A stretch of 64,000 bases of DNA from Flavobacteriales bacterium. GTDB lineage: Bacteria; Bacteroidota; Bacteroidia; Flavobacteriales_F; PHOS-HE28. Positions within the stretch are counted from its first letter, which is position 1, and each line of letters starts with the position of its first letter. The position numbers and the translations under genes were made by a program. Under the pieces are notes generated by a model. That model was given only the letters and a program-made list of their open reading frames with translations, ran no database searches and was not told where the DNA came from. The DNA is taken from assembly GCA_047601855.1 (NCBI GenBank), contig JASGIM010000003.1, forward strand, positions 725,761-789,760, given 5' to 3'. This document shows positions 2,332 through 33,512 of this stretch, piece after piece.

Positions 2332-3669
2332 TCAGAGCCGTTCGTTCGCCAGATTGGCAAGTGCGCTGCGCTCGCCCTTCTCCAAGGTGATGTGTGCGAA
2401 GAGTGGATCCCCCTTCGCTTTGTCGATGAGGTAGCTGAGACCGTTGCTCTCGCTGTCCAAGTAGGGCGTATCGATCTGGTGTACATCGCCGGTGAAGACG
2501 ATCTTGGTGCCTTCACCCGCGCGGCTGATCACGGTCTTGATCTCCAGCGGCGTCAGGTTCTGCGCCTCGTCCACGATGAAGAAGATGTTGCTGAGGCTGC
2601 GCCCGCGGATGTAGGCCAGCGGCGCGATCTGGATCTTCTCGTTCTCCAGCATCTCGTCGATGCGCTTGGGCGTGCTGTCGTGCTTCTCGAAGTTGCCCTT
2701 GATCAGCTTCAGGTTGTCCCACAGCGGCTGCATGTAGGAATCGAGCTTGCTCTGGATGTCGCCGGGCAGGTAGCCGATGTCCTTGTTGCTCAAGGGTACC
2801 ACCGGCCGGGTAACGTAGATCTGCCGGTAGTCGCGGCGCTGCTCCAGTGCGCAGGCCAGGGCCAGCAGCGTCTTGCCCGTGCCCGCCGCACCCTGCAACG
2901 TCACCAGCTTGATCTCGGGGTCCAGCAACGCCGCCATGGCCAGCGCCTGTTCAGCGTTCTTCGGGCTGATACCGAACACGTTCTGCTTCTCCACGCGCGA
3001 CACGGCCCCCGTGCGCGGATTCGTACTTGCTCAGGATGCTCTTCTTTTTGTGCTTGAGGATGAAGAAGTGGTTGCCGCTCGGCTTCTCCAGGCCCACCTC
3101 CTCCACGGGCAGGCTGCCCTGCTCGAAGAGCGTGTTGATCAATGTCTCGTCCACGTCCTCCATCACCGTGCGGCCGGTGTAGAGCTTTTCCCGAACGTCG
3201 CGCACCTTGCCGGTGAGGTAGTCCTCCGCGATGATGTCGAGGCTCTTCGCCTTCAGGCGCAGCGCGATGTCCTTGCTCACCAGCACCACCTTGCGGTCCT
3301 TGTGCTGGCGCTGCAACGTGAGCGCCGCGTTGATCGATCTGGTGGTCGTTCTTGCCGTCCTGGAACACCTTGGTGGCGTCCACGCCGTTGAGGTCGTGCT
3401 TGGCCACCACCTTGAACCGGCCCTTGGTGGGGCCGTTCAGCGGTGCCCAGTCCGTGAGCAGGTCCTTTTGTCCGATGCTGTCGAGGTGGCGGATGAACTC
3501 CCTTGCTTCGAAATTGATCGTGTCGTTGCCTTTTTTGAACGTGTCGAGTTCTTCGAGTACTTGTATCGGGATGGCCACGTCGTGCTCCTGGAAGCTTTCG
3601 ATGGCCGAGTGGTCGTACAGGATGACTGAAGTATCCAGCACGAAGATCTTCCGGTCTTTCTTCTTCATT
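2332..3669 (-). CDS. PIN-domain PhoH-like ATPase (YlaK family), disrupted by two frameshifts
   Basis: The N-terminal PIN segment ([23 protein letters not shown]...) is in the frame of ORF 2901..3866. The middle is in ORF 2951..3316. The C-terminal PhoH P-loop part (GAAGTGKT... [14 protein letters not shown]) is in ORF 2332..3003. Frame changes occur near 3290-3316 and near 3003-3030, the latter at a CCCCC run. Confidence 0.8.
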
Positions 3670-3875
3670 CGATCAAGGAACGGTTGTTCCAAAAGTGGCG
3701 GTACCGCGGCCGGATACGCGATCGGCCGGACCGCACTTATCCACGATCGATCGTGCCCTGCCGGGCCAGATCCCGCTATGACATTGATGGCGGCCACCGG
3801 CCTCGTGGCATACGGTGAACACGAGCCCGACATCAGCGGCCTGGTTCCTGAAGGAGCCGTCCCCACCTATGGCGG

Positions 3876-4208: not shown

Positions 4209-4687
4209 GAAGCCCTCACGGCACGAACACCACGCGGCGGCCGCTGTCCATGGGGCGGTCCCACACGGCCTGCACGTCGCGCAGCGGCACCACCTCCGCA
4301 TCGACGGTGAGGATGCCTTGCGCCGCCAGCGCGAAGAGCTTCGGGAAGGTCTCGGCCAAGTGGGCGGGTGACATGCTGCCGCCGCCGCTGCCCATCAGAT
4401 CGATCGCAGAGCTGCGCAACGTACCGCCCCGCAGCTGGATCGTGGGGGCCGGCCATCTCGCCGATCTGCACGATGCGCGTGCGGTGCGGCGTGCAGGCCG
4501 TGGCCCGTGAGCGCGTGCAGCAGGGCCTCCATCGGCGGTCCCCACAGGTAGTCCAGCACCACATGGAGCAAATATCCGCAGATGTCACAGATGACGCAGA
4601 TGGATGCCAATGCCCTGCTTGCCACGTATTCATCTGTGTCATCGGCGCCATCTGCGGAAAAGGACCCTGCGGGCTACTTTCGCCACC

Positions 4688-6328
4688 ATGGCCGAGAAGA
4701 TCGACATCGAAGCGAGCAAGAACGAGGACCACAACAAGCTGGCCGTCTCCCAGCTGCACAAGCGCCTGCAAGCCGTATACAAGGGCGGCGGCGAGAAGCG
4801 CATCGCGGCCCACAAGGAGAAGGGCAAGATGACCGCCCGCGAGCGCATCGACGCGCTGCTGGACCCGAAGAGCCCGCGCATCGAGATCGGCGCGTTCGCC
4901 GCCGATGGCATGTACACCGAGCACGGCGGCTGCCCCAGCGCGGGTGTGGTCGTCGTGATCGGCTACGTGAGCAAACGCCAGTGCATCGTGGTGGCCAACG
5001 ATGCCACGGTGAAGGCCGGCGCGTGGTTCCCCATGACGGGCAAGAAGAACCTGCGCGCACAGGAGATCGCCATCGAGAACCGCCTGCCCATCATCTACCT
5101 CGTGGACAGCGCCGGCGTGTACCTGCCCATGCAGGACGAGATCTTCCCCGACAAGGAGCACTTCGGCCGCATCTTCCGCAACAACGCGGTGATGAGCTCC
5201 ATGGGCATCACGCAGATCGCCGCCGTCATGGGCAGCTGCGTGGCGGGTGGCGCCTACCTGCCGATCATGAGCGACGAGGCGCTGATCGTGGAGAGGACGG
5301 GCAGCATCTTCCTCGCGGGCAGCTATCTGGTAAAAGCCGCCATCGGCGAGGACATCGACAACGAGACCCTCGGCGGTGCCACCACGCACAGCCAGATCAG
5401 CGGCGTCACCGACTACCAGTGCAAGGACGATGCGGACTGCCTGAAAAGATCCGCGCGATCATGGACAAGCTGGGCAAACCAAAGGACGCCGGTTTCAGCC
5501 GCGAGAAGCCCGCCAAGCCCAAGGCCGACCCGGCGGCCATCTACGGCCTGCTCCCCACCGACCGCGCCAAGCCCTACGATATGCGCGAGATCATCGCCCG
5601 CTTGGTGGACGACAGCGACTACACCGAGTACAAGGAGGGCTACGGCCAGAGCATCATCACGGCCTACGCCCGCATCGATGGCTGGGCCGTGGGCATCGTG
5701 GCGAACCAGCGCAAGGTGGTGAAGAGCAAAAAGGGCGAGATGCAGTTCGGCGGGGTGATCTACAGCGACAGCGCCGACAAGGCCACGCGCTTCATCGCCA
5801 ACTGCAACCAGAAGAACATCCCGCTGGTGTTCCTGCAGGATGTGACCGGCTTCATGGTGGGCAGCCGCAGCGAGCACGGCGGCATCATCAAGGACGGCGC
5901 GAAGCTGGTGAACGCCGTGAGCAACAGCGTAGTGCCCAAGTTCACCGTGATCGTGGGCAACAGCTACGGCGCGGGCAACTATGCCATGTGCGGCAAGGCC
6001 TATGACCCACGGCTTATTGTCGGCTGGCCCAGCGCACAGGTGGCCGTGATGGGCGGCGACCAGGCTGCCAAGGTGCTGCTGCAGATCGAGGTGGCGGCGC
6101 TGAAGGGGCGCGGCGAGGAGATCACGAAGGAGCGCGAGGAGGAGGATCCTCGGCAAGATCCGCGCGAAGTACGAGGAGAGCATGAGCCCATACTACGCGG
6201 CGGCACGGCTGTGGCTGGACGCGATCATCGATCCGATGGAGACGAGGACGTGGATCAGTATGGGGATAGAGGCGGCGCAGCAGAGCCCGGCGACGAAGGA
6301 GTTCAATATGGGGGTGTTGCAGACGTAG
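4688..6328 (+). CDS. pccB: Propionyl-CoA/methylmalonyl-CoA carboxylase carboxyltransferase (beta) subunit, two frameshifts
   Basis: Acyl-CoA carboxyltransferase sequence from MAEKIDIEASKN... through ...VVANDATVKAGAW...AVMGSCVAGGAYLP. The frame switches near 5440 and again near 6140 (GAGGAGGAGGA run). The true C-terminus ...GIEAAQQSPATKEFNMGVLQT ends at TAG 6326-6328. Confidence 0.85.
6260..6328. repeat. Left copy of an imperfect ~68-bp direct repeat (native 3' end of pccB)
   Basis: atggggatagaggcggcgcagcagagcccggcgacgaaggagttcaatatgggggtgttgcagacgtag is repeated at 7059-7125 as atggggggtcgaggcggcgagccaagaaccgacggagggagttcaatatggggtgttgcagacgtaag. Confidence 0.75.
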
Positions 6329-6354: not shown

Positions 6355-7050
6355 ATGAAAGTCCTTGACGCGCTGAAGCGCATTGATAGCCTTCTAGTCG
6401 GGCTCTTCGTGGTGTTTCTCTTTGGCTCAATCGGCTTACTCATTGCCAAGCAGTTTCCCGCGGAAAAGCACTGGCATTCAGATTTGGCCGATTACGCCAT
6501 GAATCTTGCATTGGCCTATGTAGGTACGTTCTTCTTCTTTCTACTCTCAGACATGCGAGCTGAAGCCAAGTTGGCGCAGACAATTCATCAGCAAGTGGAG
6601 TTGTTCAACGAGAGGCTGGTAACCGTCTCGAACATGGTCGTGAATTCCCTTGAGCAAGATAATCGTAGGCAAACTGACACCAACACGCTCACGCACACAT
6701 CACCGGAAATCGACGCTCTTACACGCGAAGCCCGTAATCGTGTGTCGAACGAAACGGGACGAACCTATGATGCCATCCTCAACCGAGACCTTGGCCGGGC
6801 ATACAACCAACTAGCACCATACATCGCTCAAATAGGCATTGTTGATCCAGCCCTATTCAGAGCTATAACCCGCGCTGCGAACGAACCGGTTCAACTGGTA
6901 CTGCCGGATAACATTGTGGAAAATGACCCGAACAACGCACTACCAGCAGACCGTATCGGTATCAAACTCGACCATGTCCTGACTTACTTCAAGAACTTTG
7001 CACCGCATGTGCTGCACCGCGGCGACCCGGGCTATGCACCACGCAAGTAA
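6355..7050 (+). CDS. Hypothetical 2-TM membrane protein, AT-richer than flanks
   Basis: 231 aa starting MKVLDALKRIDSLLVGLFVVFLFGSIGLLIAKQF. Two N-terminal hydrophobic helices, then a roughly 150-aa soluble tail. No recognisable domain. It lies exactly between the two repeat copies. Confidence 0.6.
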   Translation: MKVLDALKRIDSLLVGLFVVFLFGSIGLLIAKQFPAEKHWHSDLADYAMNLALAYVGTFFFFLLSDMRAEAKLAQTIHQQVELFNERLVTVSNMVVNSLEQDNRRQTDTNTLTHTSPEIDALTREARNRVSNETGRTYDAILNRDLGRAYNQLAPYIAQIGIVDPALFRAITRAANEPVQLVLPDNIVENDPNNALPADRIGIKLDHVLTYFKNFAPHVLHRGDPGYAPRK

Positions 7051-7058
7051 TCGTCATC

Positions 7059-7125
7059 ATGGGGGGTCGAGGCGGCGAGCCAAGAACCGACGGAGGGAGT
7101 TCAATATGGGGTGTTGCAGACGTAA
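7059..7125. repeat. Right, degenerate copy of the pccB 3'-end direct repeat
   Basis: See the 6260-6328 entry. Indels leave this copy out of frame (ORF 7059..7262 reads MGGRGGEPRTDGGSSIWGVADVRG). Confidence 0.7.
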
Positions 7126-7280: not shown

Positions 7281-9029
7281 ATGGCCACCAAGAGCATCAT
7301 TGATAAATCGACTGAACTCAAGGAATATGTTGCGCAGTTCGACATAGACTCATTCTGTGGTTTTTGTGCATTCTTCATCCGGAGTCGTACCAAAGGTGAG
7401 CTATCGGGCAACATGACGATGTTCAAGTCGATGCAGAAGGAACTTACATATCTCATGGCTCTGAACTACTTCAATCAGAAAAGTATGTCAAAGTATTTCC
7501 TGACAACGGATGAGACAATAGCCGAGCTTGCTCGGAAAGTCAATGACATCAAAGAGAGCTACATAAGGGATAGCTTCTCGGAGCTACGCATGAACGTGGA
7601 TAGGCCTTATCAGCGGCGTGCCTTGATACACGAACAGATGTTTCGATTCTTCTATGACAACGGCATCCTAAATTATATGGAACAAGAGGTCAACCGTATT
7701 GAGATGACCTATGGCCCGCATGACGAAGTGATCCGCATTGCAACGGGCTTGACCGTTCAGGATTATCTGGATTGTTTCGTTGCTCTCGAGAACATACAAC
7801 GTGCAAAGGAGATCGAGGCGACAAGGATATTTCGAGATCCGATAATCCAAGAAACAGTCATCCTATTGAGGGAAGTTGTAACCGATGATAATAGAGATGA
7901 ATTCATGCGTACGGTCGAGAATCTTCCCGATAACCTAAGGTCTGAATTTATGAGGTTCAACGAGTGTCCGCATAGTCATCTCAAGGTAGGAGTTGATGAC
8001 CTATCAGTATTTGTGGATAAAGTGGTTGCCGTCAAATTCCTTGACTGTATGTCGGTTAGCCCATCAGCATATGCCGGATTCAGCTACTACGATGAGTTCA
8101 ATCCATTGGAGGCTCATCCTTTATTGCGAATAGGAAACGATTACATGCATACCAATGGCAAACAGCTCCTTGTGGCCATCAATGACTTCCTGTTCACTAT
8201 TCTGAAGACTCAAAAGACCACTTCACGCGCTTGCCGGGCAGTTGAGACGCAGTTGGAGCAACAGACCAGAAACGTTGTAGAGCGATTCTTCAGCAAGGGA
8301 GACTTGAATGTCTATCAGAACTACTACGTCGCCGGTGGACTGGAGCAAGATCTCCTGATAGAGATAGGCCCTAAGGTGATTATTTGTGAATGCAAGTCGA
8401 CCCGTTTGAGAAGCCCGCTCCGGGATATAGACAAGTTCTATACCAGAGCGAGAGATGATTTCCGGCGATCCATTCAGAAGGGCTACGATCAAGCGGATCG
8501 GGTGGCAGACTTGATCACTAAGCAAAAGGAAACCATACTCTACGATCACAAAGGCAAGGAACGTGGCCGGGTCAGGCAGAGGTCACCTAAGGACGTATGT
8601 GTCTGGGTGGTTACAGACAAATCGCTTGGACCGGCTCAAGTCGATCTGTCTTACATGCTTGATTCCAGCAAAGCGCTTATGGACTACCCATGGTCACTTT
8701 GTATTGACGATCTTGAAACCTTCCTACTCTATCTGTCGAAATTTCCCAATCCATTTTCAAGACTATTCGATTATCTGCGCTTTCGACCACGTCTATATGG
8801 TCGGGTCATTTCTCCTGATGAGCTGGATATTGTGGGTTGGTATATAACGAACAGACCAAAGTTCCTAGCAGCCTGTATGAATGATTCAGACTGGGTTCTT
8901 GTTGATTTGAAGTTGCAAGGGATTTTCGACAAGGAGTATCATAGTGAGAAAGGGCTGGGATTTGATGAGCGCTTACGTGACCGACTTTGGAATGAAGATG
9001 ATTGGGAGCGCGAGGACAAGCTGGATTGA
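7281..9029 (+). CDS. Uncharacterised 582-aa protein with a PD-(D/E)xK-like nuclease motif
   Basis: Markedly AT-rich coding sequence. The motif GGLEQDLLIEIGPKVIICECKSTRL fits a D...E-x-K nuclease core. No Walker A/P-loop seen. The N-terminal ~350 aa show no recognisable family. Confidence 0.6.
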   Translation: MATKSIIDKSTELKEYVAQFDIDSFCGFCAFFIRSRTKGELSGNMTMFKSMQKELTYLMALNYFNQKSMSKYFLTTDETIAELARKVNDIKESYIRDSFSELRMNVDRPYQRRALIHEQMFRFFYDNGILNYMEQEVNRIEMTYGPHDEVIRIATGLTVQDYLDCFVALENIQRAKEIEATRIFRDPIIQETVILLREVVTDDNRDEFMRTVENLPDNLRSEFMRFNECPHSHLKVGVDDLSVFVDKVVAVKFLDCMSVSPSAYAGFSYYDEFNPLEAHPLLRIGNDYMHTNGKQLLVAINDFLFTILKTQKTTSRACRAVETQLEQQTRNVVERFFSKGDLNVYQNYYVAGGLEQDLLIEIGPKVIICECKSTRLRSPLRDIDKFYTRARDDFRRSIQKGYDQADRVADLITKQKETILYDHKGKERGRVRQRSPKDVCVWVVTDKSLGPAQVDLSYMLDSSKALMDYPWSLCIDDLETFLLYLSKFPNPFSRLFDYLRFRPRLYGRVISPDELDIVGWYITNRPKFLAACMNDSDWVLVDLKLQGIFDKEYHSEKGLGFDERLRDRLWNEDDWEREDKLD

Positions 9030-9048
9030 TCCAAGAAGTGTCATGATT

Positions 9049-9993
9049 TCATGAATTGTCTCCGTAGTGTATTGCATTCATGACATTGAGAGGAAACATG
9101 GGGTAGCTCAGGTCATCGTCTTCCAAATCGGTTCGATAGAACTTGATCATGTCCATCGCAACACCCAAATCATCTCTATCCGGTCGGCTCATAGATGCCT
9201 CCAACCAATCAAACGCTTCTGAAACATCCTCAACAAGCGCTTGCATCTTTCGATGTACTCCTTGGCGATGAATGAACTTGAGGACGGTCAACCCCGGCAA
9301 AGCCACTCTCAGGTCCCGAAGATGAATGACAGCGTCATACACGATCGAGTTTCCTGCATCGATACACAACTTGGCCAACGCGCGGATTTGTTCTTCATGC
9401 GCTCCCCCGTGAGCACTCGGAAAAAAGTTGTACACCAACGAGCTGATCACTCCGGTATGTTCTTCGGACGAGCCCGATCGCGTCATGTGAGAAACAGATG
9501 ACAGTAGCTGCAATACGGCGAGAGCAACCCTGTAATTGGTGTAGTCGGCATAGATGCCAAGCTTGCTGAGCACATCGGCCCGCTCCGTTCTTGACGTTGC
9601 ATAGTACTCCGCCTCGATCTTGATGACGTCCAGCAATATGGTGGCAGTCAGGCTTGCTTCTATTAGTGCCCCCTCCGTTAACCCATGTATCGGCTGATCC
9701 ATTAACCCTACTACCTTCTTTCTCTCATTCGCTATCGCTTGGTAGTGTAAGCTGCGGTACCGGCGGATTACACCCGGGGTCAGCTTCCTGATAAGGGGAG
9801 AGGTACGTTCGGCCTCTTCATGATGAGCAAAGCATAGGAAGGCCAAATTGTCCTCAACCGTGTTTGAAGAATCACCATCCAAGTGGTGAAGATGAACCCC
9901 ACGCTCCCGACATACGCAGCATTGCATGTGGGACTTGAACATCACTTCGTCCTCAGTAGTGCGTGACCGCACTCGTTTACTCTTCTTATGCAT
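9049..9993 (-). CDS. HNH endonuclease-domain protein with an uncharacterised ~230-aa C-terminal domain
   Basis: The N-terminus CCVCRERGVHLHHLDGDSSNTVEDNLAFLCFAHHEEAE carries the CxxC...HH...N...N...CxxHH HNH zinc-finger signature. Convergent with the 582-aa gene. AT-richer than flanks. Confidence 0.7.
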   Translation of the reverse strand: MHKKSKRVRSRTTEDEVMFKSHMQCCVCRERGVHLHHLDGDSSNTVEDNLAFLCFAHHEEAERTSPLIRKLTPGVIRRYRSLHYQAIANERKKVVGLMDQPIHGLTEGALIEASLTATILLDVIKIEAEYYATSRTERADVLSKLGIYADYTNYRVALAVLQLLSSVSHMTRSGSSEEHTGVISSLVYNFFPSAHGGAHEEQIRALAKLCIDAGNSIVYDAVIHLRDLRVALPGLTVLKFIHRQGVHRKMQALVEDVSEAFDWLEASMSRPDRDDLGVAMDMIKFYRTDLEDDDLSYPMFPLNVMNAIHYGDNS

Positions 9994-10549: not shown

Positions 10550-11158
10550 ATGGCGCTCACCCTTACGCCCATCACCGAGCCGGAGAAGCTGGATGAGTAC
10601 TACCGCTTTCGGTATCGGATATACAGCGACAGCGGCATGCAAAGGTTTGTCATTGATGCCGGGGGCTTGGACAAGAATCCTTTCGATGAGCGTGCCCGAC
10701 ACTACGGTTGGTACGTGGATGGAACGTTGGCTGGCTGTGTGCGATTCATCGAGCCGGATGGAAGTGCAGTCCCGATCCCAACCCTTGCAGTATTGAACGG
10801 CGGGTTGGGAACTGCTGTGCGCTCATACGTTGCCGAACGGGAAGCATTGAGTCAGCCAATGGCGGAGGCCAGTCGCTTCTGTCTGGCACAAGCCTACCGA
10901 GGTCTGCGGACAACCAGGGAGTTCGTGCTTGCCATGGTAGCGACCATGCAGCCCCTTGGCTACGAACATGGAGTATTCAACTGCCGCCAAGAACATTCAC
11001 AGTTCTATAGAACGTTGGGGTTCGATCCGTTGCATAACGGAGGAGGCCAATACGTTCCATGTCTGGAGGAGACGCTGGTCGTGTTCCAATGCGACTTCGC
11101 TAAGTTGGTGGGAAAGAATGCCCGATTGAGGGAACTCATTTCCTCCTTCAAGAAATGA
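10550..11158 (+). CDS. GNAT-fold N-acyltransferase, autoinducer-synthase/N-acyl amino acid synthase-like
   Basis: About 203 aa from MALTLTPITEPEKLDEYYRFRYRIYSDS... The YRFRYRIY and later FCL..AYRG blocks resemble the LuxI/OlsB/N-acyl-amino-acid-synthase (Acetyltransf_5) family. Confidence 0.55.
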   Translation: MALTLTPITEPEKLDEYYRFRYRIYSDSGMQRFVIDAGGLDKNPFDERARHYGWYVDGTLAGCVRFIEPDGSAVPIPTLAVLNGGLGTAVRSYVAEREALSQPMAEASRFCLAQAYRGLRTTREFVLAMVATMQPLGYEHGVFNCRQEHSQFYRTLGFDPLHNGGGQYVPCLEETLVVFQCDFAKLVGKNARLRELISSFKK

Positions 11159-31126: not shown

Positions 31127-31354
31127 GGTTCGGTCAGGTTTGGTTCGTGCTTCGCTTTGGACGGGGGCTATTCCAGGGGTCACAAGAGGGTGGGACCCCA
31201 ATAATGCCATTCCCGGCGGCGAAGGTAATGAGTGTGGCCCACTTGGCCTCTTTCCTTGATCAGGCCTCCTGCGCTTCTTCCAACGCTCCGATGTGGATAC
31301 CGCACGGGAACGATGGTCCTTGCGGCCTTCCGGCGCACCGGAAGCCGCCCGTGG

Positions 31355-32035
31355 TCAGTGTTTCAGCTTATCCGCGAACACCTTGCGGAACTTCTCCACC
31401 TTGGGCCGGATGACCAGCTGGCAGTAGCCCTGCCCGGGATTGTTGGCGTAGTAGTCGCGGTGGTAGTCCTCCGCAGGGTGGAACTTGTCCAGCTTGGTGA
31501 TCTCCGTCACGATCGGCCGGTCGAAGGCGCCGCTCTTGTCCAGTTCGGCCTTGTAGTGCTCCGCCGCGATGCGTTGGGCCTCGCTCGTGTAGAAGATGGC
31601 CGAGCGGTACTGCGTGCCCACGTCGTGGCCCTGCCTGTTCAACGTGGTGGGATCGTGGGTCTGCCAGAACACCTCGAGCAGTTCGGGGAAGCTGATCACG
31701 GACGGGTCGTACACGATGCGCGCCACCTCGGCATGCCCGGTGGTGCCGGTGCACACGGCCTTGTAGTCCGGGTGCTCCAGCGTGCCACCGGTGTAGCCCG
31801 ACATCACGGAAAGCACGCCCTTCAATTCGGTGAACACGGCCTCCACGCACCAGAAGCAGCCGGCGCCGAACACGGCGGTATCCGTGGCGGCGGGCGTGGC
31901 GATCACGATGGGATCGGCGGGATGGGCGGCAGGTGCGGTCATGTGCGCGGATGGATCGGTGCAGGCCGGAAGGCCGGATGCGAGCAACGGCAGCAGGGCC
32001 AAAGTTCGGGAACGGATGGCAGGCAACGGCTTCAT
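31355..32035 (-). CDS. msrA: Peptide-methionine (S)-S-oxide reductase
   Basis: Signal or lipoprotein-like N-terminus, then the MsrA active site GAGCFWCVEAVF. Confidence 0.9.
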   Translation of the reverse strand: MKPLPAIRSRTLALLPLLASGLPACTDPSAHMTAPAAHPADPIVIATPAATDTAVFGAGCFWCVEAVFTELKGVLSVMSGYTGGTLEHPDYKAVCTGTTGHAEVARIVYDPSVISFPELLEVFWQTHDPTTLNRQGHDVGTQYRSAIFYTSEAQRIAAEHYKAELDKSGAFDRPIVTEITKLDKFHPAEDYHRDYYANNPGQGYCQLVIRPKVEKFRKVFADKLKH

Positions 32036-32066
32036 GGAAGGAGTGCGGCAAATGCCGTTCCGCAGA

Positions 32067-33308
32067 TCACCCCTGCCGTCGCGTCAGCTCGCGGGCGATG
32101 CGCTCCACCACGCCGGTCACCAGCGCATTGCCCATGAAGAAGGCGCGCCAGCCGTCCGGCGCACCGGCCGTGTGGCCGTCGGGGAACATGTTCAGCCGCT
32201 CCAGTTCCACGGGCGTAAGCCGCCGGAAACGCCCGGTGGGCGTGCGCACCACGTGCTTGAAGCGCGAAGGCGAAGGGCCGCCCTCCCCGGTGATGATGGT
32301 GCGCGCCGGCTTGTCCAACGCATCCGGGAACGCCATCGCCCCTTCGGAATAGTGGTAGTTGTGCCGGCCGTTGGCCGCCGTGCGGGCCTCCTTCTTCGCT
32401 CCTTTCAGGTATTGCCAGCGGCGCAGCTGCGCCTTCGGCACGAAGAACGACCGGGGCACTTCCGCCTCGGGTAGCAGGATGTCCCCCAGCACGGTGGCCT
32501 TTCCGGAGAAGCGCGGCGCCACCTTGGCGGTGTAGGCCAGGCCATCGCGCATCACCCCGGCGGAGAGGAACGGCGACACCGTCCCCTTCGCGTTGAACGA
32601 CCGCGACACCTGCGCCAGATCACCAGAGATGGGCACCGCATGCACCGCGGCCTCCTCCTCCACCGGGAACGCGGAAGCGAAGATCCCCGCGCGCATCAAC
32701 CGTTCGGCAGCAGCTTCCAGCGAAAGCGGTGCTCCATCAGCGCGCTCACCGAAGATGAACACGCGCCGCCGGCGCTGGGGCATGCCGTAGTCCGCGGCAT
32801 TGATCACCCGCCACTCCACCGCATAGCCCAGCGCGTTCAGCGAGTTCAGCATCACGGCGAAGTCGCGTCCGCGCTGGCCTGCGGGCGAGCCCAGCAGGCG
32901 GTCCACGTTCTCCAGCAGCAGGTAGCGCGGCTTCCGGGCACGCTGTTCGAGCAGGCGCTGAATCTGCCACCAGAGCACCCCCTTTTTCCCGAGCAGCCCT
33001 TTCGCATTGCGCAGGGTGGAGGCCACGGAATAATCCTGGCAGGGGAAGCCGCCCACCAAGAGGTCATGGTCGGGGATGTCGTTCGCAGCCACCGTGGCGA
33101 TGTCCTGGCACACATGGCCTTCCGCGCCGAAGCGCGCCGCGTAGACGTCGGAAGCGTGCTGCTTCTTCTTCCCCGGCTCCCATTGGTCGCTCCACACCAC
33201 CTGGTAGCCACCGGCACGCTCAAACCCGACGCGGAACCCGCCCACACCGGCAAAAAGCTCGGCCACGCGCAAGGGTGCGGCGGCGGCGGACTTGGCACGT
33301 CGGGGCAT
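32067..33308 (-). CDS. DNA (cytosine-5)-methyltransferase, apparently orphan
   Basis: Motif I ELFAGVGGFRVGF, motif IV GGFPCQDYSVA, motif VI ENV, motif VIII QRRRRVFIFG. No restriction endonuclease ORF adjacent. GC is like the host. Confidence 0.85.
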   Translation of the reverse strand: MPRRAKSAAAAPLRVAELFAGVGGFRVGFERAGGYQVVWSDQWEPGKKKQHASDVYAARFGAEGHVCQDIATVAANDIPDHDLLVGGFPCQDYSVASTLRNAKGLLGKKGVLWWQIQRLLEQRARKPRYLLLENVDRLLGSPAGQRGRDFAVMLNSLNALGYAVEWRVINAADYGMPQRRRRVFIFGERADGAPLSLEAAAERLMRAGIFASAFPVEEEAAVHAVPISGDLAQVSRSFNAKGTVSPFLSAGVMRDGLAYTAKVAPRFSGKATVLGDILLPEAEVPRSFFVPKAQLRRWQYLKGAKKEARTAANGRHNYHYSEGAMAFPDALDKPARTIITGEGGPSPSRFKHVVRTPTGRFRRLTPVELERLNMFPDGHTAGAPDGWRAFFMGNALVTGVVERIARELTRRQG

Positions 33309-33437: not shown

Positions 33438-33440
33438 CGA

Positions 33441-33512
33441 GCGGGAAACGGGACTCGAACCCGCGACCCTCAGCTTGGGAAGCTGATGCTCTACCAACTG
33501 AGCTACTCCCGC
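33441..33512 (-). tRNA. tRNA-Gly (anticodon CCC)
   Basis: The reverse complement GCGGGAGTAGCTCAGTTGGTAGAGCATCAGCTTCCCAAGCTGAGGGTCGCGGGTTCGAGTCCCGTTTCCCGC folds as a canonical cloverleaf. Anticodon loop TTCCCAA. Confidence 0.85.

What the first reader, a model, noticed from the sequence alone, without database searches (positions are those of the whole stretch)
9049..9993. HNH nuclease fused to an uncharacterised C-terminal domain, convergent with the PD-(D/E)xK-like gene
The N-terminus carries CxxC...HLHHLDGD...N...N.LAFLCFAHH, a zinc-ribbon HNH signature. The rest (~230 aa) is unknown. Convergent transcription leaves only 19 bp between the two stop codons. An HNH paired with a second nuclease-like gene on a foreign island is unusual. 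It could be a two-nuclease toxin/effector pair, or a restriction-like enzyme without a visible methyltransferase (the only MTase is 22 kb away and host-like in GC).
Basis: seen in the sequence. Interest (0 to 1): 0.65.

Follow-up and report, generated by a model that had tools for sequence, protein, structure and literature searches.

The report
Standalone HNH nuclease with helical sensor-like domain
The gene encodes an intact HNH DNA-cutting enzyme fused to a previously undescribed acidic helical-repeat domain; it belongs to an unnamed family that sits in anti-phage defence islands and swaps its front-end effector, and it is not a functional partner of the nuclease gene beside it.

Summary
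ORF 9049-9993(-) encodes 314 aa with an intact zinc-ribbon HNH motif. It lies 19 bp stop-to-stop from a convergent 582-aa PD-(D/E)xK gene, on a low-GC islet (GC3 0.53-0.58 against about 0.8-0.86 in flanking genes).

In 14 other informative loci carrying the HNH family and 5 distinct loci carrying the 582-aa family, the two never co-occur, and no other neighbour is conserved.

A profile search shows the family is large: 2644 hits, 104 at E<=1e-30. The C-terminal roughly 205 aa is a confidently modelled all-alpha solenoid (pLDDT 93). It is acidic and has no Pfam, NCBIfam, PADLOC or PDB relative. The same domain is fused to HNH (92 of the best 150 hits), Mrr_cat (25), EAD11 (6), Avs4/Cap5-type HNH_2 (3), DUF4062/TIR-like, OLD-type TOPRIM and SMEK_N.

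In 10 of the 14 other loci, known defence genes lie within about 4 kb (Gabija, SIR2-HerA, GmrSD, AbiE, MmeI, Eco29kI, PD-T7-1, PD-T4-7).

Best reading: a stand-alone sensor/regulator-plus-effector defence nuclease of an unnamed family. The closest known design is Lamassu LmuA, but no LmuB/LmuC partner and no CTD homology was found. No function has been tested.

The parts
9049..9993 (-). Complete gene, 314 aa: N-terminal HNH nuclease module, long linker helix, C-terminal alpha-solenoid domain
   Evidence: ORF. Full-length homologues align from residue 1 to about 310. AF2 model with 44-sequence alignment has mean pLDDT 93.3 and pTM 0.74.
9697..9963 (-). HNH module, residues about 11-99: helix 11-20, CCxC zinc knuckle (C25/C26/C28), beta-beta-alpha-metal core (H36, H37, N49, C54, H57/H58), then long helix 73-99. 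Basic: net charge +5, pI 9.3.
   Evidence: Invariant or near-invariant residues. Profile match to IscB HNH, E=0.003. ZorE HNH models 2.6e-4. Secondary structure. Charge.
9058..9681 (-). C-terminal all-alpha domain, residues about 105-312: nine helices forming an ARM/HEAT-like solenoid. Acidic: net charge -11, pI 5.1. Near-invariant A117, R172, Y219-D220, K239, P298. This is the constant module of the family.
   Evidence: pLDDT 95-99 over most of the domain. Foldseek against PDB returns only designed or ARM/HEAT repeat proteins at E>=0.06. No Pfam, NCBIfam, PADLOC or PDB sequence hit. Found behind seven different N-terminal modules.
9030..9048 (.). 19-bp spacer between the two convergent stop codons; no terminator-like hairpin detected
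7281..9029 (+). Independent neighbour: 582-aa PD-(D/E)xK / NERD-like protein (invariant E355, D357, E370, K372), distantly GapS1-like. Not a conserved partner of the HNH gene.
   Evidence: NCBIfam GapS1 at E=3.8e-6 but only 26 bits against a cut-off of 320; Pfam NERD at E=0.17. Invariant motif. Its homologues sit next to MmeI-type RM or HepT/MNT genes and never next to the HNH family.
6355..7050 (+). Third low-GC gene of the islet: 231-aa predicted membrane/coiled-coil protein with no family assignment. No link to the HNH gene was found.
   Evidence: The ORF-clustering analyses found no homologue of it in the loci they covered. The direct tblastn attempt used a mis-framed translation and is uninformative.

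Best explanation
The gene encodes a stand-alone, single-polypeptide defence nuclease of an unnamed modular family.

Shown: the N-terminal roughly 100 residues are an intact, basic HNH (beta-beta-alpha-metal) DNase. The C-terminal roughly 205 residues are an acidic alpha-helical solenoid. That solenoid is the constant part of the family, while the N-terminal module is exchangeable: HNH, Mrr-type PD-(D/E)xK, Avs4/Cap5-type HNH, OLD-type TOPRIM, TIR-like DUF4062, SMEK, or the EAD11 adaptor. The genes are embedded singly among known defence systems.

Inferred mechanism: the solenoid is a regulatory or sensor platform. It keeps the nuclease silent in uninfected cells, possibly by the acidic surface masking the basic HNH or by fixing an inactive oligomeric state. 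On binding a phage-derived cue, most likely a protein, it releases or oligomerises the effector. The effector then cuts DNA non-specifically, destroying phage DNA and/or arresting the cell.

In this window the gene lies on a small horizontally acquired islet beside a second, unrelated single-gene candidate (a GapS1-like PD-(D/E)xK protein). The two are cohabitants of a defence islet, not a pair.
For: (1) Catalytic and zinc ligands are invariant across 44 diverse members, so the nuclease is under purifying selection. The HNH core is more conserved than the C-domain: 0.66 against 0.43 mean top-residue frequency.

(2) The family is large. There are 2644 profile hits, 104 at E<=1e-30. Among the best 150, 92 are HNH plus C-domain and 44 carry the C-domain behind another N-terminus. 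Of 43 of those scanned, 25 have Mrr_cat, 6 EAD11, 3 HNH_2, 1 DUF4062/TIR_2, 1 OLD-like TOPRIM and 1 SMEK_N. The HNH_2 modules match Avs4 (1.8e-51), CBASS Cap5-type effectors and SduA.

(3) Context. Of 14 other HNH-type loci with usable flanks, 10 have known defence genes within about 4 kb. These are Eco29kI RM (L001), type IIG/MmeI (L002/3, L018, fragments in L004), PLDc_2/PBECR2/DUF559 (L004-6), GmrSD (L014), AbiEi/AbiEii (L015), SIR2+HerA (L017), PD-T4-7 (L035), complete Gabija with GajA at 1.8e-279 (L037), and PD-T7-1 (L039). The Mrr variant in L116 lies by an integrase and an HATPase/HD-CE protein.

(4) No neighbour family is conserved across 20 loci, apart from self-contained MmeI enzymes. 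That fits a single-gene system.

(5) The C-domain is acidic (median net -4, window -11) while the HNH module is basic (+5). This argues against the C-domain being the DNA-binding part.

(6) The same logic, a constant C-terminal region with an N-terminal EAD replaceable by REase, HNH, TIR and others, is described for other conflict systems (PMC8195603). In Lamassu, the LmuA helical CTD both sequesters and tetramerises a swappable N-terminal effector that includes HNH, Mrr and SMEK (PMC12663957).

(7) The gene lies on a low-GC islet.
Against: There are no experimental data for any member. The defence role rests on guilt by association from a modest sample of 14 loci plus the domain architecture. 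Four loci (L016, L019, L024, L038) showed no recognised defence neighbour, and L038 was not scanned with profile libraries.

The trigger, the oligomeric state and the autoinhibition step are inference only. I could not inspect model coordinates or PAE.

More than 90% of the identified N-terminal modules are DNases, which is also what a DNA-targeting restriction enzyme family would show.

The existence of EAD11 variants means at least some members work with another protein. A trans-encoded partner for the HNH form therefore cannot be excluded.
Confidence: 0.55

Rival explanations
1. Modification-dependent (type IV-like) or otherwise MTase-independent restriction endonuclease. The alpha-solenoid reads DNA, perhaps modified phage DNA, and positions the HNH or Mrr nuclease to cut it directly, with no abortive-infection step.
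For: The N-terminal modules are overwhelmingly DNases typical of type IV enzymes: HNH 92 and Mrr_cat 25, then HNH_2 3 and TOPRIM 1. No cognate MTase is adjacent in any locus. Members are frequent neighbours of RM and GmrSD genes. Alpha-solenoids can bind DNA, for example the HEAT-like repeats of AlkD (own knowledge).
Against: The C-domain is acidic in most members (median net -4, pI 5.5; window -11). The same domain is also fused to EAD11 adaptors, TIR-like DUF4062 and SMEK_N, none of which cut DNA. There is no similarity to any known modification reader such as SRA, YTH, EVE or winged helix.
Confidence: 0.17
2. Orphan or trans-acting effector subunit of a multi-component system encoded elsewhere. 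One example would be an LmuA-like effector whose helical CTD docks onto an SMC-like LmuB/LmuC complex. Another would be a partner recruited as in the EAD11 variants.
For: The N-terminal repertoire overlaps that reported for short-Lamassu LmuA (HNH, Mrr, SMEK), and the LmuA CTD is also a helical bundle (PMC12663957). EAD11 variants imply protein-protein recruitment in part of the family.
Against: No SMC/ABC-ATPase or any other conserved neighbour was found in 20 loci, the window included. PADLOC LmuA models hit neither this protein nor 43 variants. The family profiles find no LmuA chain in PDB sequences at E<=10, although I did not confirm that LmuA chains are in that copy. No LmuA appears among the listed top 50 of the Foldseek hits. 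The short-LmuA CTD is described as 5-6 helices; here there are nine.
Confidence: 0.12
3. One reading: the HNH protein and the adjacent 582-aa PD-(D/E)xK protein form a two-nuclease toxin/effector pair.
For: They are adjacent (19 bp apart), both have low GC, and both are nuclease-like.
Against: They are convergent and so not co-transcribed. They never co-occur in the 14 other informative HNH-type loci (plus three contigs too short to judge) or in 5 distinct loci of the 582-aa family, including the closest homologues of each. Each family has its own, different neighbours.
Confidence: 0.04
4. Selfish homing endonuclease, or the toxin of a toxin-antitoxin or polymorphic-toxin system.
For: HNH domains are common in homing endonucleases and toxins. 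The closest structural matches of the HNH core are phage HNH proteins.
Against: There is no match in phage genomes, no intron or intein context, no conserved small adjacent immunity or antitoxin gene, and no secretion or trafficking domain. The nuclease is N-terminal with a large constant C-domain.
Confidence: 0.04

Closest known systems
LmuA, effector subunit of (short) Lamassu
   Same: A swappable N-terminal effector followed by a constant all-helical C-terminal domain. The reported LmuA effector set includes HNH, Mrr and SMEK, the same unusual trio seen here. In LmuA the CTD controls activity through sequestration and tetramerisation (PMC12663957).
   Different: No LmuB (SMC-like ATPase) or LmuC was found next to any of 20 loci. 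No sequence or profile similarity to LmuA models or solved LmuA chains was detected. The domain has nine helices (about 205 aa) against a 5-6 helix bundle. Extra N-terminal partners occur here (EAD11, DUF4062, TOPRIM).
ZorE, the HNH protein of type II Zorya
   Same: It is the best-scoring named relative of the HNH module, including the helix that follows it (PADLOC 2.6e-4 and 6.5e-4; NCBIfam NF041791 E=0.009).
   Different: The score is only 15-18 bits over 30-90 residues, against a cut-off of 600 bits. In ZorE the HNH is C-terminal. There are no ZorA or ZorB neighbours. The C-terminal solenoid is absent from ZorE.
Constant C-terminal region with N-terminal EAD-or-effector replacement (for example the EAD10/TPR-GreA/B-C-PIN systems of Kaur et al. 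2021; EADs of Kaur et al. 2020)
   Same: The architectural rule is identical. An N-terminal adaptor (here EAD11) is replaced in paralogous proteins by REase, HNH, TIR-like and other effectors in front of a constant, faster-evolving C-terminal region (PMC8195603; PMC7159879).
   Different: The constant region is different: a novel alpha-solenoid with no TPR/GreA/PIN. No NTPase core or partner EAD11 gene was seen in the one EAD11 locus examined.
Single-protein sensor-effector defence nucleases such as GAPS1 (and, from own knowledge, DSR2 with its SIR2 plus HEAT-like repeat sensor)
   Same: One polypeptide carries a nuclease or NADase effector together with a non-enzymatic region thought to sense a phage structural protein. 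GAPS1 is triggered by the T7 capsid protein and needs its PD-(D/E)xK site (bioRxiv 10.1101/2023.03.28.534373). A helical-repeat sensor is the DSR2 solution.
   Different: There is no homology to either. The effector is an HNH, the protein is much smaller than DSR2, and the trigger is unknown. GAPS1 likeness applies, weakly, to the neighbouring 582-aa gene and not to the HNH gene.
Type IV restriction enzymes of the McrA / Mrr kind
   Same: An HNH or Mrr_cat nuclease fused to a non-catalytic domain, no methyltransferase, and residence in a defence island.
   Different: No known modification-reader domain is present. The non-catalytic domain is acidic. That domain is also fused to non-nuclease modules.

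Membership tests
HNH (beta-beta-alpha-metal) endonuclease superfamily | Catalytic His, structural Asn and metal-binding His/Asn on a beta-beta-alpha core | tested here: met
   H36/H37, N49 and H58 are invariant or at least 90% conserved in 44 sequences. They align to the HH...N...H of IscB HNH. The beta-beta-alpha core is predicted at pLDDT above 90. Foldseek superposes the core on phage HNH models.
HNH (beta-beta-alpha-metal) endonuclease superfamily | Cys/His zinc-ribbon ligands (CxxC ... CxxH) | tested here: met
   C25/C28 and C54/H57 are conserved in at least 90% of members.
HNH (beta-beta-alpha-metal) endonuclease superfamily | Score above the Pfam gathering threshold for an HNH model | tested here: not met
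   No Pfam HNH model hits the window protein at E<=1. A distant family member, P0164, passes PF01844 (23.1 against 21.4 bits). Membership therefore rests on motif, profile and structure rather than on Pfam.
Type II Zorya ZorE | Full-length match to NF041791 (cut-off 600 bits) | tested here: not met
   14.8 bits, residues 30-104 only.
Type II Zorya ZorE | ZorA/ZorB motor genes in the same operon | tested here: not met
   The window neighbours are a carboxyltransferase, a 231-aa TM protein, a 582-aa PD-(D/E)xK protein, FeeM-like and ICMT genes. None of 20 related loci has a conserved neighbour.
Lamassu LmuA | Adjacent SMC-like ATPase LmuB (usually with LmuC) | tested here: not met
   There is no SMC/ABC ATPase gene near the gene in the window or in the related loci. 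The only ATPases seen belong to complete Gabija or SIR2-HerA systems.
Lamassu LmuA | Homology of the C-terminal domain to the LmuA CTD | tested here: inconclusive
Lamassu LmuA | Swappable N-terminal effector in front of a constant helical CTD | tested here: met
   Seven N-terminal module types, including HNH, Mrr and SMEK.
Type II restriction-modification system | Cognate DNA methyltransferase adjacent | tested here: not met
   The nearest MTase found in the scanned part of the window is a C5 methylase at 32067-33308, 22 kb away and host-like in GC. No MTase is a conserved neighbour elsewhere.
Type IV (modification-dependent) restriction enzyme | A DNA-modification reader or DNA-binding domain fused to the nuclease | tested here: inconclusive
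   No known reader domain is detected and the C-domain is acidic. DNA binding itself cannot be tested here.
Homing endonuclease | Phage, intron or intein context | tested here: not met
   No tblastn match in 50,697 phage records. Only N-terminal partial hits on Agrobacterium plasmids. The gene is chromosomal and free-standing.
GAPS1 (applies to the neighbour 7281-9029) | NCBIfam NF047931 score above 320 bits; PD-(D/E)xK site | tested here: not met
   26 bits only. The D-x(n)-E-x-K site is present and invariant (D357, E370, K372). The gene is at most a distant relative.
Defence-island resident (operational criterion) | Recurrent location next to known defence systems in unrelated genomes | tested here: met
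   10 of 14 other loci. The sample is small and not compared with a genome-wide background.

The most novel reading that the evidence does not exclude
The acidic alpha-solenoid defines a previously undescribed, widespread family of single-polypeptide immune sensors, found so far mainly in Bacteroidota. It drives at least seven interchangeable N-terminal outputs: two HNH types, Mrr, TOPRIM, a TIR-like domain, SMEK, and an EAD11 adaptor for effectors recruited in trans. That would make it a new anti-phage defence system with a new kind of sensor domain, possibly one that holds a basic nuclease silent by acidic DNA mimicry.
Probability: 0.45. Interest if true: 0.65.

Novelty: new variant of a known kind. 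Interest (0 to 1): 0.5.

Why it matters
If the family is a working defence system, it adds a compact (about 310 aa), single-gene sensor-effector module with a sensor fold that has no solved or curated relative. It also has a natural series of effector swaps, which makes the sensor's function directly testable by keeping the C-domain and changing the output.

It would extend the "constant sensor, polymorphic effector" rule to a new scaffold. It would also offer a possible evolutionary link to the LmuA effectors of Lamassu.

Practically, the family is invisible to current annotation. Pfam, NCBIfam and PADLOC give nothing for the C-domain, and the deposited gene model even truncates the HNH motif. 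Defence-system censuses in Bacteroidota therefore miss it.

The negative result matters too. Adjacency of two nuclease genes on an islet is not evidence of a paired system.

Tried and rejected
**Conserved partnership.** I looked for one with the 582-aa gene or any other neighbour and found none (tblastn and all-vs-all BLASTP over 20 or more loci). The 582-aa ORF in L014 that looked like a match by length is a GmrSD protein.

**RNA genes.** tRNA, tmRNA or Rfam elements that might mark an integration site next to the gene: none within 20 kb.

**Internal duplication of the C-domain.** The helix lengths suggested it, but hhalign of the two halves gave probability 0.2%, so it is not claimed.

**EAD11 partner.** I searched the genes flanking the EAD11 variant in L031 and detected none.

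**Menshen NsnC as a relative.** Rejected: that protein has an N-terminal inactive PIN and C-terminal effectors (PMC12065111).

**First structure model.** The 6-sequence alignment left the HNH part unmodelled (pLDDT below 50). The 44-sequence alignment fixed this.

**Word-indexed homologue search.** It found only 6 relatives and gave a misleading impression of rarity. The exhaustive profile search corrected that.

**Literature searches.** Searches for a named system with this architecture found none. This is absence of evidence within the held library only.

**TM-gene tblastn.** My tblastn for the 231-aa TM gene used a wrong frame and is uninformative. The ORF-clustering analyses, which included the ORF carrying that gene, found no homologue of it in the loci they covered.
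Full report

Yes. The window has an ATG-initiated ORF at 9049..9993 on the minus strand (314 aa). It has a convergent ORF at 7281..9029 (582 aa), and their stop codons are 19 bp apart. No terminator-like hairpin was found between them.

Both genes lie in a low-GC stretch, together with a 231-aa ORF at 6355..7050. Their gene GC is 0.46-0.51 and GC3 is 0.53-0.58. Flanking host genes have GC3 of 0.80-0.86. The FeeM-like gene at 10580-11158 is intermediate (GC3 0.62).

The source is a Flavobacteriales MAG. Its deposited gene model for this ORF (QM724_09890) is only 277 aa because it starts at a TTG (L38), which removes the CxxC and the first His residues. Homologues align from M1, so the long reading is correct.

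**2. The N-terminal module is a bona fide HNH nuclease.**

- In a 44-sequence alignment of diverse family members, H36, N49, L50, L53, C54 and H58 are invariant. C25, C26, C28, G32 and H37 are at least 90% conserved.
- The family profile aligns this stretch to the IscB HNH domain in the PDB (E=0.003), pairing HH/N/H with the IscB catalytic residues.
- PADLOC ZorE HNH models (2.6e-4), an NCBIfam ZorE model (0.009) and a PHROG HNH family (3e-4) give weak, local hits.
- Pfam HNH models do not reach threshold on this sequence.
- AlphaFold2 with the 44-sequence alignment gives mean pLDDT 93.3 and pTM 0.74, with a beta-beta-alpha core (E34-37, E50-53, H55-62) followed by a long helix 73-99.
- Foldseek against viral models superposes only this roughly 80-residue core on phage HNH proteins.

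**3. The C-terminal domain.**

Residues about 105-312 form nine helices with pLDDT mostly 95-99.

Foldseek against the PDB, with both models, returns only designed helical-repeat, armadillo and HEAT proteins at E>=0.06. The fold class is therefore an alpha-solenoid without a specific solved relative.

No Pfam, NCBIfam, PADLOC or PHROG model matches it, and neither does any PDB sequence by single sequence or by two family profiles.

The two halves show no detectable internal repeat.

The domain is acidic: net -11 and pI 5.1 here, median -4 across the family. The HNH module is basic, at +5 and pI 9.2-9.3.

**4. The family is large and modular.**

The word-indexed search found only six relatives. 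An exhaustive profile search of 1.84 billion cluster representatives found 2644 proteins at E<=1e-3 and 104 at E<=1e-30.

Among the best 150 hits:
- 92 have HNH plus C-domain.
- 44 have the C-domain behind a different N-terminus.
- 9 are C-domain fragments.
- 5 are HNH only.

Pfam scans of 43 of the alternative forms gave these N-terminal modules:
- Mrr_cat: 25
- EAD11: 6
- HNH_2: 3
- DUF4062/TIR_2: 1
- OLD-like TOPRIM/DUF3226: 1
- SMEK_N: 1

The HNH_2 modules are the same cassette as in Avs4 (1.8e-51), CBASS Cap5-type effectors and Shedu.

All members that carry a source name are called "hypothetical protein".

The HNH module alone also recurs in front of many other C-termini in metagenomes.

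**5. Genomic context.**

I collected loci through exact-protein look-ups, a scan of GTDB species genomes and a metagenome scan. Members are mostly from Bacteroidota (Flavobacteriales, Cytophagales such as Imperialibacter and Marinoscillum, Chitinophagales). A few come from Ignavibacteria and Anaerolineae.

All-vs-all BLASTP of the neighbouring ORFs across 20 loci found no conserved neighbour, apart from self-contained MmeI-type RM enzymes in some.

Ten of the 14 other HNH-type loci with usable flanks have recognised defence genes within about 4 kb:

| Locus | Defence neighbour |
|---|---|
| L001 | Eco29kI RM |
| L002/3 | type IIG RM and DUF6731 |
| L004-6 | PBECR2, PLDc_2, DUF559, MmeI fragment |
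| L014 | GmrSD |
| L015 | AbiEi/AbiEii |
| L017 | SIR2_2 + HerA |
| L018 | MmeI |
| L035 | PD-T4-7 |
| L037 | complete Gabija |
| L039 | PD-T7-1 |

In L016, L019 and L024 nothing was recognised. L038 was not scanned with profile libraries.

Variant loci:
- The Mrr form in L116 lies beside a phage-type integrase and an HATPase_c_3/HD-CE protein.
- The Mrr form in L032 lies near a UvrD/GajB-like helicase and putAbiC.
- The DUF4062 form is followed by a second DUF4062 protein.
- The EAD11 form lies between DUF4365 and an HNH gene, in neither of which EAD11 was detectable.

There is no match in phage genomes. On plasmids there are only partial N-terminal matches.

**6. The neighbour and the pair hypothesis.**

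The 582-aa protein has an invariant D357...E370-x-K372 motif. It gives a sub-threshold NERD hit and a weak GapS1 hit (26 bits against a cut-off of 320). GAPS1 is a validated single-protein PD-(D/E)xK defence factor triggered by a capsid protein (bioRxiv 10.1101/2023.03.28.534373).

Its homologues at 70%, 62%, 52% and 31% identity sit after MmeI-type enzymes (L007-9, L010), beside HepT/MNT (L034), or in unrelated context (L011/12). None sits next to an HNH-solenoid gene.

tblastn of both proteins over the first 34 fetched loci (L001-L034) shows no locus containing both. BLASTP clustering that added L035-L040 agrees. Even the 70%-identical HNH homologue has no trace of the 582-aa gene in the 240 nt downstream of it.

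The two genes are convergent. The two are best seen as independent residents of one small defence islet.

**7. Mechanism.**

Shown:
- an intact HNH under purifying selection;
- a constant, faster-evolving acidic solenoid;
- effector swapping;
- defence-island residence;
- no conserved partner.

Inferred: the solenoid is the regulatory or sensing part and the N-terminal module is the output. Two published precedents use the same logic.
- Conflict systems in which an N-terminal EAD is replaced by REase, HNH, TIR and other effectors in front of a constant C-terminal region (PMC8195603; EAD concept in PMC7159879).
- Lamassu LmuA, whose helical CTD sequesters the effector on LmuBC and then tetramerises it for activation. 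Its effector list includes HNH, Mrr and SMEK (PMC12663957).

For the present family I propose the following sequence. The nuclease is autoinhibited in the resting state, possibly by charge complementarity between the acidic solenoid and the basic HNH. A phage-derived ligand, more likely a protein than DNA given the acidity, activates it. Non-specific DNA cleavage follows. Every step after "intact nuclease" is inference.

**8. Rivals.**

- A type IV-like restriction enzyme remains possible (0.17), because more than 90% of the identified N-terminal modules are DNases. The acidic C-domain and the EAD11, TIR-like and SMEK fusions argue against it.
- The pair hypothesis is improbable (about 0.04).
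- Homing-endonuclease and toxin readings are also improbable (about 0.04).

**9. Novelty and verdict.**

The kind of system, a single-protein modular defence nuclease, is known. The constant domain and the family are not in any library I could search, and I found no paper naming them.

I rate it a new variant of a known kind, with interest 0.5. It is a credible and easily testable candidate defence family with an uncharacterised sensor-like fold. The evidence is entirely comparative, and the original "paired nucleases" hook is not supported.

Noticed in passing
window 9883-9993 (-): The public gene model (QM724_09890, 277 aa) starts at TTG/L38 and so cuts off the CxxC knuckle and the first His residues of the HNH motif. 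Homologues support the ATG at 9993.
   Followed up: yes
window 4604-6328 (+): The acyl-CoA carboxyltransferase gene changes reading frame twice, near 5440 and near 6140, returning to the original frame. These are either assembly indels in the MAG or a pseudogene.
   Followed up: partly
window 6262-6327 and 7062-7124: A degenerate direct repeat of about 65 nt copies the 3' end of the carboxyltransferase gene. It brackets the 231-aa TM/coiled-coil ORF (6355-7050), which has no family assignment. It looks like the scar of a site-specific insertion at the gene's 3' end, separate from the insertion that brought the two nuclease genes.
   Followed up: partly
window 7281-9029 (+); L007 7001-8770; L010 7001-8701; L034 102-1847: The 582-aa PD-(D/E)xK/NERD-like family (invariant D357, E370, K372; GapS1-like at 26 bits) lies directly downstream of MmeI-type IIG enzymes in two of five distinct loci, with a 22-nt gap on the same strand in L010. 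It may be an independent defence gene or an MmeI accessory.
   Followed up: partly
window 10580-11158 (+): The FeeM-like N-acyl amino acid synthase gene has intermediate GC3 (0.62). The acquired region may therefore extend to about 11158.
   Followed up: no
window 32067-33308 (-), 31232-32137, 33439-33512: A host-GC C5 cytosine methylase lies next to tRNA-Gly(CCC). The adjacent ORF(s) at 31232-32137 have no Pfam hit. This may be an orphan Dcm or an unrecognised RM pair.
   Followed up: no
window 2901-3866 (-): A 321-aa PIN_4 domain protein lies upstream of the islet.
   Followed up: no
L031 311-3283: The EAD11 plus solenoid variant sits between a DUF4365 (REase-like) gene and a C-terminal-HNH gene. 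No EAD11 was detectable in either, so its presumed EAD11 partner is unidentified.
   Followed up: partly
L115 4087-7068; L116 250-5907: The DUF4062 plus solenoid variant is followed by a second, 588-aa DUF4062 protein. An Mrr plus solenoid variant lies beside an HATPase_c_3/HD-CE protein and a phage-type integrase.
   Followed up: no
L020 7962-8929: A family member in a Melioribacteraceae MAG is split into two overlapping ORFs (215 and 107 aa). This is a frameshift or a decaying copy.
   Followed up: no
L041-L114 (metagenome loci): The roughly 90-residue ZorE-like HNH module, with its flanking helices, recurs in front of many unrelated C-terminal regions. The effector cassette is therefore itself mobile.
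   Followed up: no
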